This document shows, in pieces, positions 10,447 to 40,611 of a stretch of DNA of 64,000 nucleotides. The stretch covers positions 1 through 64,000 of IMG/VR virus record IMGVR_UViG_3300044843_000488, one strand, 5' to 3'. The DNA comes from a virus. Under the pieces are notes generated by a model that did no database searches, was not told the DNA's origin, and saw only the letters and a program-made list of their open reading frames with translations. Both the position numbers and the translations under genes were made by a program. Position 1 is the first letter of the stretch, and each line of letters opens with the position of its first letter.

Positions 10447-10607
10447 CCCTTACCTTGGCCTCTGTATTTTTTGCGAGCACTAGCACGCTTAGTGCGACCT
10501 GAAAAGACACGGGAACGCACACGCCAGCCGTCACCAATTCGTGTCCTTTTAGGCTTACCAGCGATATGAATAGTTCCGCTGAGTCCTTTCTTTGCGCGTA
10601 CAGCCAT
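10443..10607 (-). CDS. Small basic protein (KKYRGQG type)
   Basis: MAVRAKKG...KPKRTRIGDG...KKYRGQGKG, 54 aa; TAATG-coupled to the endolysin stop. Confidence 0.7.
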   Translation of the reverse strand: MAVRAKKGLSGTIHIAGKPKRTRIGDGWRVRSRVFSGRTKRASARKKYRGQGKG

Positions 10608-11797
10608 TATTTGTTAAGAAGAATACCCCACCCAGTTCCTGGACCTTCAACAGTCCATCTGGGAAGGAAGTTTTTGATTGAATACTTAAGGTGATCACCG
10701 TTCTTATTAGCGAGATATCCGCCAGTAATCACGGACATTTCTCCGTAGGGGTCGTTGACCACTAGATAGGAATCGTCAAGCAGTCCAACGACCAAAAGCC
10801 AGTGCCCCGTGCCAGTCGGCGCTGTATTCGGTCCTTTGTGCAGCACACCAATCGGCACTGGAATTCCCTTTTCCAGCTGAATCTTGATGTCGCTTAAGGC
10901 CAAATTCTGTCGATACGACCCACGAACACCAAATGACTCCATAGCTCTAAGTTGAGCCTTGTAGTCAGTGGTATCTCCGAATTGCTGTACGCGCTTCAAG
11001 TAGAAATCATCTTTTTGACTACTTTGAAGCTTTCCTGGTCTCAAAAAGTCAACAGCCATCGCACAAGTGCTTGAAAAGCACATGCGATACGCCTGATCTG
11101 TTTCGGAGTCAAGCTGGGAAAAGAAAGGAACCGGTAGATCTATGCCGGTGTCTTTATCTGATGGGAGTTTGGTAGTTGAACCGGCGTACTGATCAAGCAG
11201 CTTAATAAGCTTGCGACTGTATGCCGGATCAGTTGCGTAACCCTCTTTCACTAAGAGCTGAGCAGCTTCTTCCCGAGTCGCGGCTCTATTGATTCCTTTG
11301 TACGCGTCGTAGTCTTTGTACCAGCGGTTAACAACGTAGTCGACACCCTCTTGGATAGAGGCGAAATTCATGAAGCGAGCCTCAATGGTTACCCACTCGC
11401 CCTTGATAAACTCTTTCGTTGTCTTAATAGTTCCGCCAGTTCTACCTGTTTGCTTCACTCCCCAGAAATTGAACTTACCACTGGGGTAGCGGCCAAATCC
11501 AGACTCAAGTGCCCATTGTGCCGCAAGGACTTCAGGGAATTTAGCTCCGGCAATAGAGGCGGCTTTTTCAATACCTGCCCAGGTGTTTTCCACTTCGGCT
11601 GCAGGCTCTTGCTGAGGTGCTTTGGCGCGGAACAGCTCGATCCATTCAGCTTGTTCCACCATCAAGGATGGGTCAGCTTTTGCAACGTGTTGCTGAAGCA
11701 AGTCAACAGCAGCGAGATGCTGAGGGTTATCGGGATTGAAGTATTTGAAAAAATCTCGCAGTTTGCCTGGTGCGAGAGCTAGATCAGACATTGTCAT
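10607..11797 (-). CDS. Endolysin: GH73 glucosaminidase + C39-like peptidase
   Basis: AQWALESG, NFWGVK and GYATDPAY (GH73); PFFSQLD, CFSSTCAM, GHW and DPYG (C39-like Cys-His-Asp). Confidence 0.88.
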   Translation of the reverse strand: MTMSDLALAPGKLRDFFKYFNPDNPQHLAAVDLLQQHVAKADPSLMVEQAEWIELFRAKAPQQEPAAEVENTWAGIEKAASIAGAKFPEVLAAQWALESGFGRYPSGKFNFWGVKQTGRTGGTIKTTKEFIKGEWVTIEARFMNFASIQEGVDYVVNRWYKDYDAYKGINRAATREEAAQLLVKEGYATDPAYSRKLIKLLDQYAGSTTKLPSDKDTGIDLPVPFFSQLDSETDQAYRMCFSSTCAMAVDFLRPGKLQSSQKDDFYLKRVQQFGDTTDYKAQLRAMESFGVRGSYRQNLALSDIKIQLEKGIPVPIGVLHKGPNTAPTGTGHWLLVVGLLDDSYLVVNDPYGEMSVITGGYLANKNGDHLKYSIKNFLPRWTVEGPGTGWGILLNK

Positions 11798-12026
11798 TAT
11801 TTAACCAAGGTGCTCTAATTTCCATGGTCCCTCCAAGGAGTTCCTGGGCTTTAGAGCCATCGGGTGGATGCTCAACAAATTGGGGCTGGGGCTCTGATGG
11901 CTGGCCGGCATGCCACTCTTTCTCCGCCTGGTCAAGTTTTCCAGGAAGAGTGGTGTAGAACTTTTTAGCTTGAGCCCAGCGTAAAAACTCCTCCTGCCAA
12001 GAACGAGAGGAGAATCGCAGTTCTAC
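11784..12026 (-). CDS. Start-less ORF: predicted -1 frameshift extension of the holin-like protein
   Basis: 80 codons open (VELRFSSRSWQEEF...GGTMEIRAPWLNNDNV) beginning at the A_AAA_AAG heptamer at 12032-12026. No upstream start codon; fills the gap up to the endolysin. Confidence 0.7.
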   Translation of the reverse strand, partial: VELRFSSRSWQEEFLRWAQAKKFYTTLPGKLDQAEKEWHAGQPSEPQPQFVEHPPDGSKAQELLGGTMEIRAPWLNNDNV

Positions 12027-12181
12027 TTTTTTCCGGAACGGGCTTTCAGTACAAGCTGAAGCGCGGACGCGAGAAGCTGCAGCACGGAGTTTGATTTGAC
12101 TTTGTCATTGGGGATCAAAGCCAAGATCTCCGATACGGCAGTAAGGATTACCCAGAAAATGGGGGATTCAATAAGACCCAT
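12023..12181 (-). CDS. Holin-like small membrane protein
   Basis: MGLIESPIFWVILTAVSEILALIP..KSNSVLQL..GKK; hydrophobic and upstream of the endolysin. Confidence 0.7.
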   Translation of the reverse strand: MGLIESPIFWVILTAVSEILALIPNDKVKSNSVLQLLASALQLVLKARSGKK

Positions 12182-12473
12182 TGTGATGAGCTTCAGGGGC
12201 TGACTTATTGTAACCAATCAATATTTTGTCTAACTTGTAATCCATTCGGTCAATCCGGTTGTCAAGTCGCTCCATCAAGGCCGCAAGATCTTCCTTGTCC
12301 ACATATTCTTTAGCCAGCCGAATCTCGATAGCATTCATGCGCTGGTCGACTTGCTCAACTCGTGTTGCATTCAGCTTCTCCATATCGTCAAACCGCTTGC
12401 CCAGAGTAAGGAGAGCAGATGCCGCCCCGCCTACTAGGCTGAGCGCAATGCTCAGAGGTAGTACAGGCTCCAC
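12168..12473 (-). CDS. Membrane-anchored coiled-coil protein of the lysis module
   Basis: N-terminal TM helix, EYVDKEDL motif and a coiled coil. Confidence 0.7.
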   Translation of the reverse strand: MEPVLPLSIALSLVGGAASALLTLGKRFDDMEKLNATRVEQVDQRMNAIEIRLAKEYVDKEDLAALMERLDNRIDRMDYKLDKILIGYNKSAPEAHHNGSY

Positions 12474-39670: not shown

Positions 39671-40123
39671 CTAAATCGATGTGACCTTACTTAGCGCGGC
39701 TACTACGTGAACGGGTAGCTTCCTTTCTCTGATCACCTTATTTAAGATCTCCTCGGTTTCGGTCTGCTTTGCGGCTACTTCTTCGTTCAAAACAAAAGGC
39801 AATAGCTCGTCAAGCGTCAGCTTTGCCTCCTTCTTGCTACCTGCTAAGGCTTGAGCAACATTGACGACTACTAGTGCTAACTTTGCCGTCGATATAGAGG
39901 CTATATTGGCGCGCCTTTTTTCTTCCTCGTAGACGAACTCTAAGAGCATATTTACCTCTTTTAAAGGTGTTCGCAAAAAGGTTGCACGAGTATAGTCCTC
40001 CCCAAAAGGAGAGACTTTTAGTTTTAGGTACAGCTTGGTGACGTCGAGAGGCTTTTGCGCCAGGAACCTTCGATAACTGTCTATGTGCTTTTCTGGATCC
40101 TCGTCACCCTCATTCAGTTTCCC
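39671..40123 (-). CDS. Tail assembly chaperone T segment (gpGT via -1 frameshift)
   Basis: Frame is open from the G_GGA_AAC slippery site (40123-40117) through the 39671-39976 ORF. Confidence 0.8.
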   Translation of the reverse strand, partial: GKLNEGDEDPEKHIDSYRRFLAQKPLDVTKLYLKLKVSPFGEDYTRATFLRTPLKEVNMLLEFVYEEEKRRANIASISTAKLALVVVNVAQALAGSKKEAKLTLDELLPFVLNEEVAAKQTETEEILNKVIRERKLPVHVVAALSKVTSI

Positions 40124-40611
40124 GCTTCTTCCTCACCAGTGGGCCAGCCATTTCGCTCCCAATTAATGAACGTAAAAATGTCGTTCAACAACCGGCTGGG
40201 AATCAGAAGGGTGTCTTCTCGCGTCCAGTCACGAGTCTCTACCCATTCGTTAGTTTCCTTGATCTCCCCTCTGAACCGCAAGAAGAGTGTCACCATCTCA
40301 ATTTGCTGCTCAGCGACCGTCGAACTATCCTTTTGGATTTCTGCCAGTTCTTCGGCGTGCTCGTACAGAACCTCATTATCGCTTTCAGTATTGCTAAGCA
40401 ACTCCAACGCATCCTTGACGCCAATCTTGCGCTTTTTGGAAACCGCTTTTGCGATTTTAAGCAGGGAGTACGTGTTCTGTGCCTGCTTCCTGGCAATATC
40501 CTCGACGCCCTCTGCTTCGCCCGCAACAAGATCTTTATAGATCGGGAAACGAAACGGGAGAATCTCGTGATATTCCTTTTCTTTGAAAAAAAGCTTTGCG
40601 TAACGGCTCAT
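40114..40611 (-). CDS. Tail assembly chaperone G
   Basis: Between the tail tube and tape measure genes; ends GCG GGA AAC TGA. Confidence 0.82.
   Translation of the reverse strand: MSRYAKLFFKEKEYHEILPFRFPIYKDLVAGEAEGVEDIARKQAQNTYSLLKIAKAVSKKRKIGVKDALELLSNTESDNEVLYEHAEELAEIQKDSSTVAEQQIEMVTLFLRFRGEIKETNEWVETRDWTREDTLLIPSRLLNDIFTFINWERNGWPTGEEEAGN

What the first reader, a model, noticed from the sequence alone, without database searches (positions are those of the whole stretch)
11784..12181. Predicted programmed -1 frameshift in the holin-like lysis gene
Seen: the 52-aa membrane ORF ends GGA AAA AAG TAG, placing the classic A_AAA_AAG heptamer (12032-12026) directly before the stop. The -1 frame is open for 80 more codons, has no start codon near its 5' end, exactly fills the gap and overlaps the endolysin start. 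Known: A_AAA_AAG is a highly shift-prone bacterial heptamer (dnaX, IS elements); phage frameshifts are best known in tail chaperones and capsid/tail proteins. Inference: 52-aa and ~132-aa isoforms are made in a fixed ratio, e.g. a holin/antiholin pair or a membrane tether generated by recoding rather than dual starts.
Basis: partly seen in the sequence, partly recalled or inferred. Interest (0 to 1): 0.78.

Follow-up and report, generated by a model that had tools for sequence, protein, structure and literature searches.

The report
Conserved frameshift in cyanophage holin-like gene
A tiny membrane-protein gene beside the cell-wall-cutting enzyme of this lake cyanophage ends in a slippery sequence conserved in about 70 related phages, so ribosomes very probably slip back one base there and make both a 52-residue protein and a 132-residue extended form, a way of making two lysis-gene products that I found in no paper.

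Summary
On the minus strand the 52-aa membrane ORF (ATG 12181) ends GGA AAA AAG TAG. The heptamer A_AAA_AAG lies at 12032-12026. The -1 frame then runs 80 codons to TGA 11786-11784, has no ATG/GTG/TTG until 13 codons before its stop, and overlaps the endolysin start at 11797.

Comparison makes a programmed -1 ribosomal frameshift by far the best reading:
- Of 77 non-identical loci carrying this holin-like gene, 69 have an in-frame heptamer 0-3 codons before the stop and a -1 ORF of 41-100 codons.
- The heptamers are A_AAA_AAG (66), G_GGA_AAG (2) and C_CCA_AAG (1), the three most shift-prone heptamers in E. coli.
- The -1 peptide is conserved from the slip site onwards, with dN/dS 0.07-0.10 at saturated dS.
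- Seven loci without a heptamer also lack the extension. One, S-CBS2, encodes it as a separate gene with its own start.
- Cultured Synechococcus phages share the arrangement (S-CBS1, S-CBS3, KBS-S-2A, S-B28, WH11-B, S-EIVl), and their records annotate no frameshift.

Function is inferred, not shown: two forms of a lysis-cassette membrane protein, with a role in lysis timing or tethering. No RNA or protein data exist. This scan noted the same phenomenon on other genomes (e1-6035913, e1-3422211). I found no publication on it.

The parts
12168..12473 (-). First gene of the lysis cassette: a 101-aa protein with an N-terminal membrane segment and a coiled coil. Its stop overlaps the start of the 52-aa gene by 14 nt.
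   Evidence: ORF list. Only weak coiled-coil or DUF2730-type Pfam hits and a match to phrog_12220. The same kind of gene precedes the holin-like gene in S-CBS3, KBS-S-2A, S-CBS1 and P60.
12023..12181 (-). Zero-frame ORF of the holin-like small membrane protein: 52 aa plus a TAG stop. It has one hydrophobic segment at residues 8-24 and a basic tail, KARSGKK.
   Evidence: Kyte-Doolittle maximum of 2.16 over 17 residues. Matches phrog_22542 at E 7.5e-10, a family of unknown function. Alignment A1. 208 relatives in IMG/VR.
12026..12032 (-). Slippery heptamer A_AAA_AAG in the zero frame (GG A AAA AAG), the site of the -1 shift.
   Evidence: Conserved in 66 of 69 frameshift-type loci, with G_GGA_AAG or C_CCA_AAG in the other three, and G_GGA_AAG in S-EIVl. 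These three heptamers are reported as the most efficient in E. coli (PMC4066793).
12023..12025 (-). Zero-frame stop codon TAG directly after the heptamer, a possible 'shifty stop' stimulator.
   Evidence: The stop lies 0 codons after the heptamer in 27 loci, 1 codon after in 40 and 3 codons after in 2. The stimulatory effect is inferred from Weiss et al. 1987, as cited in PMC5009743.
11784..12026 (-). Extension in the -1 frame: 80 codons plus TGA, with no start codon of its own. It encodes a soluble module with the motifs RFSSRSW, KFYxTLPxKLDxAExEW and PDGSKAQELLGGxMEIRAPW.
   Evidence: tblastn hits in cyanophages. Alignments A2 and A5. dN/dS 0.07-0.10 in this frame against about 1-4.6 in the other two frames. 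AlphaFold2 model at pLDDT 66: a long helix followed by a small strand-helix-strand unit.
10607..11797 (-). Endolysin, 396 aa, with Glucosaminidase and Peptidase_C39_2 domains behind an uncharacterised N-terminal domain of about 70 aa. Its start lies 14 nt inside the end of the -1 ORF.
   Evidence: The endolysin start overlaps the end of the -1 ORF in the siphovirus-type loci.

Best explanation
This is a programmed -1 ribosomal frameshift in a lysis-cassette gene.

How it works:
- Most ribosomes translating the 52-aa membrane protein terminate at TAG 12025-12023.
- A fraction slip back one base on A_AAA_AAG. This is tRNA-Lys re-pairing from AAG to AAA, probably helped by the slow-to-decode stop codon next to the site.
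- Those ribosomes continue for 80 codons. The product is a 132-aa protein: the same membrane segment and basic tail, plus a soluble, mostly helical module ending in the conserved LLGGxMEIxAPW motif.
- One gene therefore gives a short and a long form, at a ratio set by the slip frequency.

Shown here by comparison: the slip site and the start-less, purifying-selected -1 frame are conserved together across sipho- and podo-type cyanophages.

Inferred only: both forms act in lysis. The long form may be a regulator or antiholin-like partner of the short form, or a membrane tether for the conserved module. My odds are about 0.85 for the recoding itself and about 0.35 for a role in regulating lysis timing. 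The slip efficiency cannot be predicted.
For: 1. Anatomy in the window.

2. The same arrangement is found in 69 of 77 non-identical loci carrying the holin-like gene. Wherever the extension is recognisable (56 loci) it lies in the -1 frame. The cultured phages S-CBS3, KBS-S-2A, S-CBS1, S-B28, WH11-B and S-EIVl are included.

3. The codon before AAA AAG encodes Pro, Ala, Gly, Val, Glu, Lys, Thr or Ser but always ends in A. Elsewhere in the same loci only 8 of 145 Lys-Lys pairs form the heptamer.

4. The only alternatives seen are G_GGA_AAG and C_CCA_AAG. With A_AAA_AAG these are the three best -1 heptamers in E. coli (PMC4066793).

5. In 52 of 69 loci the -1 frame has no ATG/GTG/TTG between its upstream stop and 10 codons past the slip. 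In L005 that upstream stop is only 4 codons before the slip.

6. Peptide conservation starts at the first codon after the slip. dN/dS is 0.07-0.10 with dS of 1 or more in the -1 frame only.

7. Heptamer and extension are lost together. Seven loci lack both. In two of them the Lys-Lys codons have drifted to AAG AAG or AAG AAA. S-CBS2 has no heptamer but gives the module its own GTG start and its own N-terminal region.

8. Some standalone relatives carry their own N-terminal hydrophobic segment (S-B68, P0086, P0116). They therefore have the architecture predicted for the frameshift product.

9. There is no indel at the A run in four other assemblies.
Against: - No protein, ribosome-profiling or RNA evidence exists for any member.
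- In the window's own subgroup no convincing stimulatory RNA structure was found. The single-sequence fold scores z -0.51, and the RNAalifold consensus has an unfavourable covariation term.
- Without a stimulator these heptamers give only about 0.3% frameshifting in E. coli (PMC4066793), so the long form could be very rare.
- Seventeen of 69 loci do have a possible start within 10 codons of the slip.
- The host's tRNA-Lys repertoire was not examined.
- The holin assignment matches no curated family.
- The loci are related by descent, so the counts are not independent events.
Confidence: 0.8

Rival explanations
1. Transcriptional slippage. RNA polymerase adds one extra A in the A6 run, and the resulting mRNAs encode the same 132-aa fusion without any ribosomal slip.
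For: The site is a homopolymer run of 6 A in the window and 8-9 A in L001 and L047. The protein product would be identical, so comparative data on the peptide cannot separate the two mechanisms.
Against: Six A is shorter than the runs of about 8-9 that are known to give efficient slippage in bacteria (own knowledge; reviewed in PMC5009743). The terminal G of the heptamer is invariant. Four members use G_GGA_AAG or C_CCA_AAG, which have only three A and are classical ribosomal heptamers. No RNA run was available to test this directly.
Confidence: 0.07
2. The downstream ORF is a separate 80-aa protein. It would be started at a non-canonical codon, or by re-initiation after termination at the TAG, and the heptamer would be only a by-product of a conserved Lys-Lys tail.
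For: S-CBS2 and many cyanomyoviruses encode the module as an independent protein. Seventeen of 69 loci have an ATG/GTG/TTG within 10 codons of the slip. Stop and restart overlaps are common elsewhere in this cassette.
Against: Fifty-two of 69 loci have no canonical start there, and the window has none for 67 codons. Conservation of the peptide begins at the very first post-slip codon. Codon bias cannot explain the heptamer, which forms at 5.5% of Lys-Lys pairs elsewhere but is present at this position in all 69 loci that have the -1 extension. In loci that lost the extension the Lys codons drift. Independent versions carry an extra N-terminal region of 25-45 aa that the start-less versions lack.
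Confidence: 0.07
3. Artefact or decay: a sequencing or assembly indel in a homopolymer, or a broken gene that was once a single 132-aa ORF.
For: Homopolymer runs are error-prone. One database protein, P0065 (148 aa), is an in-frame fusion of the membrane part and the extension with the junction ..KKKGL...
Against: The same -1 relation recurs in 69 loci from many independent isolates and metagenomes. Four other assemblies show no indel. The -1 frame is under strong purifying selection. P0065 departs from the family motif at its C-terminus, so it may itself carry indel errors.
Confidence: 0.02

Closest known systems
E. coli dnaX tau/gamma and IS3/IS911 OrfA-OrfAB -1 frameshifts (A_AAA_AAG)
   Same: The same heptamer and the same tRNA-Lys tandem or P-site slippage. 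Two products share an N-terminal part, at a ratio set by the slip frequency. The family's three heptamers are the top three in E. coli (PMC4066793).
   Different: Those sites have defined stimulators: an upstream Shine-Dalgarno-like element plus a hairpin, or a pseudoknot. Here none is established for the window's subgroup. Only an adjacent stop codon is present, although some podovirus members have a strong hairpin 5 nt downstream. In dnaX the shift shortens the protein, whereas here it lengthens it. The gene class, a lysis membrane protein, is different.
Phage lambda G/GT tail assembly chaperone frameshift (G_GGA_AAG)
   Same: A conserved phage -1 frameshift near the end of a short ORF that adds a C-terminal domain. 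It is commonly missed by annotation. S-EIVl, L031 and L032 even use the same heptamer.
   Different: The gene and process differ: lysis cassette rather than tail assembly. This phage has its own G/GT-type site elsewhere, G_GGA_AAC at 40123-40117. The finding is therefore a second, unrelated frameshift site in the same genome.
Lambda S105/S107 (and S21 68/71) holin-antiholin pairs made by dual start codons
   Same: One small lysis membrane-protein gene gives two products that share their membrane domains, at a genetically fixed ratio. In lambda this tunes lysis timing, and the C-terminal cytoplasmic tail of S is regulatory (own knowledge).
   Different: There the two forms differ by 2-3 N-terminal residues and arise from alternative initiation. 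Here they would differ by an 80-aa C-terminal module and arise from recoding. No sequence relation was found. Holin or antiholin activity is untested here.
RNA phage MS2 lysis gene expression through frameshifting and termination in the coat gene (Kastelein et al. 1982, cited in PMC5009743 and PMC10885494)
   Same: Frameshifted ribosomes are delivered to the start of a lysis gene. In the window the start-less -1 ORF ends inside the endolysin start region.
   Different: In MS2 the frameshifts are unprogrammed errors, and the frameshifted peptide itself has no role. Here the trans-frame peptide is conserved and under selection. Coupling to the endolysin is only a hypothesis.

Membership tests
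Programmed -1 ribosomal frameshift (X_XXY_YYZ slippage) | Slippery heptamer in the correct phase of the zero frame | tested here: met
   A_AAA_AAG at 12032-12026, in phase. In phase in 69 of 77 loci.
Programmed -1 ribosomal frameshift (X_XXY_YYZ slippage) | An open -1 frame beyond the site that lacks its own initiation codon | tested here: met
   80 codons in the window, with no ATG/GTG/TTG for 67 codons. 52 of 69 loci have no start near the slip.
Programmed -1 ribosomal frameshift (X_XXY_YYZ slippage) | Heptamer conserved beyond what the protein sequence and codon usage require | tested here: met
   The preceding codon varies among 8 amino acids but always ends in A. The background rate is 5.5%. 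Information content peaks on the heptamer alone.
Programmed -1 ribosomal frameshift (X_XXY_YYZ slippage) | Trans-frame region under purifying selection | tested here: met
   dN/dS 0.07-0.10 in the -1 frame against about 1-4.6 in the other two frames. Conserved motifs in alignment A5.
Programmed -1 ribosomal frameshift (X_XXY_YYZ slippage) | Stimulatory element: a downstream structure, an upstream Shine-Dalgarno-like element, or an adjacent stop | tested here: inconclusive
   The window fold scores z -0.51. The alifold covariation term is unfavourable, and the candidate hairpin lies 13 nt from the site. A stop codon is adjacent in all loci. Sixteen of 57 contexts fold with z below -2, and podovirus members have a stem 5 nt downstream.
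Programmed -1 ribosomal frameshift (X_XXY_YYZ slippage) | Trans-frame protein detected | not testable with these tools
   No RNA holder was listed. No proteomic data were available.
Holin (functional class) | Small protein with at least one membrane segment and a charged C-terminal tail | tested here: met
   52 aa. Hydrophobic segment at residues 8-24 with a Kyte-Doolittle score of 2.16. Tail KARSGKK.
Holin (functional class) | Gene located in the lysis cassette | tested here: met
   Directly upstream of the endolysin in siphovirus-type loci. Between the tail fibre genes and the small terminase gene in T7-like cyanopodoviruses, which is the position of T7 holin gene 17.5 by my own knowledge.
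Holin (functional class) | Match to a curated holin family | tested here: not met
   No Pfam or NCBIfam hit. phrog_22542 has unknown function. Atlas clusters are unnamed.
Holin (functional class) | Timed, lethal permeabilisation of the membrane that releases the endolysin | not testable with these tools
   Needs expression and lysis assays.
Dual-start holin/antiholin motif (lambda S type) | Two products made from two closely spaced start codons | tested here: not met
   The window has a single ATG (...ITMGLIES). The two predicted forms differ at the C-terminus, through recoding.
Transcriptional slippage site | Long homopolymer run, about 8-9 or more, as the essential element | tested here: not met
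   The window has 6 A. Four members have heptamers with only 3 A.

The most novel reading that the evidence does not exclude
The frameshift may do more than make a long isoform. It may also gate the endolysin.

The cassette is a chain of overlapping ORFs: the 101-aa gene, the 52-aa gene, the start-less -1 ORF and the endolysin. In the siphovirus-type loci the -1 ORF ends 4-30 nt inside the endolysin start region. Only ribosomes that slipped can terminate there and re-initiate.

If the endolysin start is weak on its own, slip frequency would set the dose of endolysin relative to the holin-like protein. That would be a recoding-based lysis clock, a DNA-phage counterpart of MS2 lysis-gene activation.

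Unchecked earlier notes of this scan (e1-5848419) describe relatives where the holin-like ORF is joined by a frameshift directly to the endolysin. This would fit a continuum.
Probability: 0.2. Interest if true: 0.85.

Novelty: new variant of a known kind. Interest (0 to 1): 0.72.

Why it matters
Programmed frameshifts in tailed phages are textbook only for tail chaperones and a few capsid, tail and polymerase genes. Two-product lysis genes are textbook only through dual start codons.

A frameshift conserved in the holin-like gene of sipho- and podo-type cyanophages would add a new functional class of recoding. IMG/VR alone holds 208 relatives of this gene, and the cultured members include S-CBS1, S-CBS3, KBS-S-2A, S-B28, WH11-B and S-EIVl. 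It would also add a new way of building a two-form lysis protein.

There are practical consequences:
- It corrects annotation. The extension is currently unannotated, or is called from internal starts or from spurious upstream ones.
- It defines a conserved module (...LLGGxMEIxAPW) linked to lysis in all three cyanophage morphotypes.
- It gives a testable handle on how cyanophages time lysis, a poorly understood step that controls burst size and carbon release in lakes and oceans.

Tried and rejected
- **Complex prediction.** The extension (A5) against the endolysin N-terminal domain (A6) gave no support, with scores of 0.00 and 0.01. This is not evidence either way.
- **Expression data.** No RNA holder was listed for this DNA.
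The genomic context of metagenomic standalone homologues and of the in-frame fusion P0065 could therefore not be read.
- **Function by family search.** Pfam, PHROGs, NCBIfam and the ESM Atlas gave no named family for the 52-aa protein or for the extension.
- **Structure.** The AlphaFold2 model of the extension reached only pLDDT 66, so no fold search was run on it.
- **tblastn with the window's 52-aa query** found nothing at E of 0.1 or below, because the query is short. The KBS-S-2A homologue used as query did work.
- **Are standalone relatives full-length homologues of the fusion?** Profile comparison of the holin-like alignment with the N-termini of the standalone family was weak (probability 16%). 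The idea stays open.
- **Stimulatory RNA structure in the window's subgroup** was not established.
- **The AAAAAAG at 39921** was considered as the tail-chaperone site and rejected, because it is out of phase.
- **Not done.** Host tRNA-Lys anticodons were not examined.
- **Literature.** Seven full-text searches and reading of the recoding review, the PRFect paper and the heptamer survey found no description of a frameshift in a holin-like gene.
Full report
**What is in the window**

The genome is a single 74,307-bp contig, so this is a phage genome. It recurs in about 20 lake-water metagenome runs.

On the minus strand four ORFs overlap head to tail:
- A 101-aa protein with an N-terminal membrane segment and a coiled coil (12473-12168).
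- A 52-aa protein (ATG 12181, stop TAG 12025-12023) with one hydrophobic segment and the basic tail KARSGKK.
- A start-less ORF in the -1 frame.
- A 396-aa endolysin (11797-10607) with Glucosaminidase and Peptidase_C39_2 domains.

The 52-aa ORF ends GGA AAA AAG TAG, so A_AAA_AAG lies in phase at 12032-12026. From the G of that heptamer the -1 frame reads 80 codons to TGA 11786-11784. Its only ATG/GTG/TTG is 13 codons before that stop.

Contigs from four other runs cover the A run without any insertion or deletion. An assembly error is excluded.

**The -1 frame is real coding sequence**

tblastn with the 80-aa translation hits cyanophages: S-CBS3 at 6e-11, plus KBS-S-2A, S-CBS1, S-CBS2 and several cyanomyoviruses.

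In S-CBS3 and KBS-S-2A the homologous peptide again lies in the -1 frame, behind a homologous small membrane-protein gene. Those genes end GGA AAA AAG CTC TAG and GCA AAA AAG AGC TGA. The public records either call the extension from an internal ATG (S-CBS3 gp22) or leave the stretch unannotated (KBS-S-2A).

Five IMG/VR relatives of the window's endolysin (74-77% identical) show the same 10-mer, A AAA AAG TAG. Within this subgroup synonymous sites are saturated (dS of 1 or more). dN/dS is 0.07-0.10 in the -1 frame and about 1-4.6 in the other two frames.

**Survey of the family**

A scan of IMG/VR with the alignment of the small membrane protein found 208 relatives. Eighty were kept. Together with the earlier loci this gives 77 non-identical loci, with these results:

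| Class | Loci |
|---|---|
| In-phase slippery heptamer plus a -1 ORF running 41-100 codons past the stop | 69 |
| No heptamer and no extension module | 7 |
| No heptamer, module encoded as a separate gene (S-CBS2) | 1 |

- **Distance to the stop.** The heptamer lies 0 codons before the stop in 27 loci, 1 codon in 40 and 3 codons in 2.
- **Frame.** Wherever the extension profile scores (56 loci), it is in the -1 frame.
- **Heptamers.** A_AAA_AAG occurs 66 times, G_GGA_AAG twice and C_CCA_AAG once. The cultured arctic phage S-EIVl also uses G_GGA_AAG. Sharma et al. 2014 report exactly these three as the most efficient -1 motifs in E. coli (PMC4066793).
- **Preceding codon.** It is CCA, GCA, GGA, GTA, GAA, AAA, ACA or TCA. 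That is eight different amino acids, always ending in A.
- **Background.** In other long ORFs of the same loci only 36 of 145 Lys-Lys pairs are AAA-AAG, and only 8 (5.5%) complete the heptamer.
- **Information content.** It is 1.7-2.0 bits on the heptamer and 0-0.8 bits on the flanks.
- **Starts.** In 52 of 69 loci the -1 frame has no canonical start between its own upstream stop and 10 codons past the slip. In L005 that stop is 4 codons before the slip.
- **Peptide motifs.** The peptide is conserved from the first post-slip codon: (G/D)L-IPxDGxW-RFxSRS, KFxATLPxKLDxAExEW, and a C-terminal ...LGGxMxIxAPW. The last motif persists even in the short extensions of 42-62 aa in T7-like cyanopodoviruses.

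**The exceptions are informative**

Seven loci without a heptamer also lack the extension module. The next gene has its own ATG and is unrelated. In two of these loci the retained Lys-Lys tail is encoded AAG AAG or AAG AAA.

S-CBS2 lacks the heptamer but keeps the module. There it is a separate gene whose GTG overlaps the upstream stop (TAGTG), with an extra N-terminal region.

Heptamer and start-less extension therefore occur together and are lost together. This is what a functional frameshift predicts.

**Relatives of the extension**

Database searches found a family of standalone proteins of 100-215 aa that end in the same module.

In cyanomyovirus S-B68 the member lies two genes after the endolysin. 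It has its own N-terminal hydrophobic segment with a Kyte-Doolittle score of 2.14. Two other members score 1.6-1.7, and many have only an amphipathic N-terminus. Membrane-anchored versions thus have the architecture predicted for the frameshift product.

Many gene-caller products in the databases begin inside the membrane-protein gene, read in the wrong frame (..QQHHP..). That is the signature of an ORF without a true start.

One protein, P0065, is an in-frame fusion with the junction ..KKKGL... Its C-terminus departs from the family, so it may contain indel errors. I give it little weight.

**Mechanism**

Tandem or P-site slippage of tRNA-Lys on A_AAA_AAG is the simplest account.

The members with G_GGA_AAG or C_CCA_AAG, which have only three A, and the invariant final G both argue against transcriptional slippage as the general mechanism. 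It cannot be excluded for the A6-A9 members without RNA data.

I found no convincing stimulatory structure for the window's subgroup. The adjacent zero-frame stop codon is conserved and may act as a 'shifty stop' (Weiss et al. 1987, cited in PMC5009743).

Other subgroups do have strong downstream stems. An example is a helix starting 5 nt after the heptamer in T7-like cyanopodoviruses, at -28 to -32 kcal/mol over 77 nt.

Efficiency is unknown. Bare V_VVA_AAG heptamers give about 0.3% in E. coli, so the long form may be a minor species.

**Function (inferred)**

The short protein looks like a holin in four respects:
- Its size.
- Its single membrane segment.
- Its basic tail.
- Its position. 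It lies next to the endolysin in siphovirus-type genomes. In T7-like cyanopodoviruses it lies between the tail fibre and small terminase genes, where T7 has its holin gene.

It matches no curated holin family.

The extension is soluble. The model is of modest confidence and shows a long helix followed by a small strand-helix-strand unit.

By analogy with lambda S105/S107, a second form that shares the membrane domain could tune lysis timing. Alternatively it could tether the conserved module at the membrane. A complex prediction with the endolysin's conserved N-terminal domain gave no verdict.

In siphovirus-type loci the -1 ORF ends inside the endolysin start region. Frameshift-dependent delivery of ribosomes to the endolysin is therefore an open and more novel possibility.

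**Prior knowledge**

Seven full-text searches found no description of a frameshift in a holin-like or cyanophage lysis gene. Neither did the main recoding review, the PRFect paper or the cyanosiphovirus genome papers.

Earlier AI notes of this scan report the same phenomenon on two other genomes (e1-6035913, e1-3422211). I reached the same conclusion independently from this window before reading them.

**Verdict**

The recoding interpretation is strongly supported by comparative evidence, at about 0.85. Biological role and efficiency are untested.

This is a known mechanism in a new gene class, with a new consequence for lysis-gene architecture.

Noticed in passing
window 40114-40132 (minus strand); heptamer 40123-40117: This is the phage's tail-assembly-chaperone frameshift of the lambda G/GT type. 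ORF 40668-40114 ends GCG GGA AAC TGA, giving G_GGA_AAC directly before the stop. The -1 frame (40132-39671) continues to just upstream of the tape measure gene (39635-34797). The genome therefore carries two 'heptamer plus adjacent stop' -1 sites.
   Followed up: partly
window 11590-11797 (minus strand); L023, L024, L075, L078, L083, L094, L100, L102: The endolysins that follow the frameshift cassette share an uncharacterised N-terminal domain of about 70 aa (L.D.FRY(F/Y)..LPHQ.AA...L...ADP). Their catalytic domains differ: glucosaminidase plus C39 peptidase, or other catalytic domains annotated only as 'endolysin'. There is no Pfam match, and its role is unknown.
   Followed up: partly
L051, L057, L074, L082 (T7-like cyanopodovirus contigs), 5-70 nt after the heptamer: A strong stem-loop (-28 to -32 kcal/mol) begins 5 nt downstream of A_AAA_AAG. 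This is the classical spacing for a frameshift stimulator, and it is absent from the window's subgroup. Sixteen of 57 contexts fold with z below -2.
   Followed up: partly
L023 (S-CBS3), L024 (KBS-S-2A), L107 (S-B28), L108 (S-CBS1), L109 (S-EIVl): Public records mis-annotate the locus. The extension is called from an internal ATG or GTG (S-CBS3 gp22, S-EIVl AHV82131), is annotated as a separate gene (S-CBS1 gp23), or is left as an unannotated gap (KBS-S-2A). In the S-B28 RefSeq record the holin-like gene itself is not annotated.
   Followed up: yes
L111 (S-B68) 579-1856; L112 (DSL-LC02): In cyanomyoviruses the standalone member of the extension family follows a conserved gene of about 210 aa. 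In S-B68 it lies two genes after the endolysin and is followed by a Cys-rich 81-aa ORF. This may be an unrecognised lysis module of T4-like cyanophages.
   Followed up: no
protein P0065: This is a 148-aa database protein in which the holin-like part and the extension are in one frame, with the junction ..KKKGL... Its C-terminus departs from the family motif. It is either a natural fused variant or a read-through of indel errors.
   Followed up: partly
L110 (P60) 1477-1707: The distant homologue in podovirus P60, gp39 (76 aa), has no heptamer. It carries a short in-frame helical tail of about 25 aa without the APW motif, which is a third way of extending this protein.
   Followed up: partly
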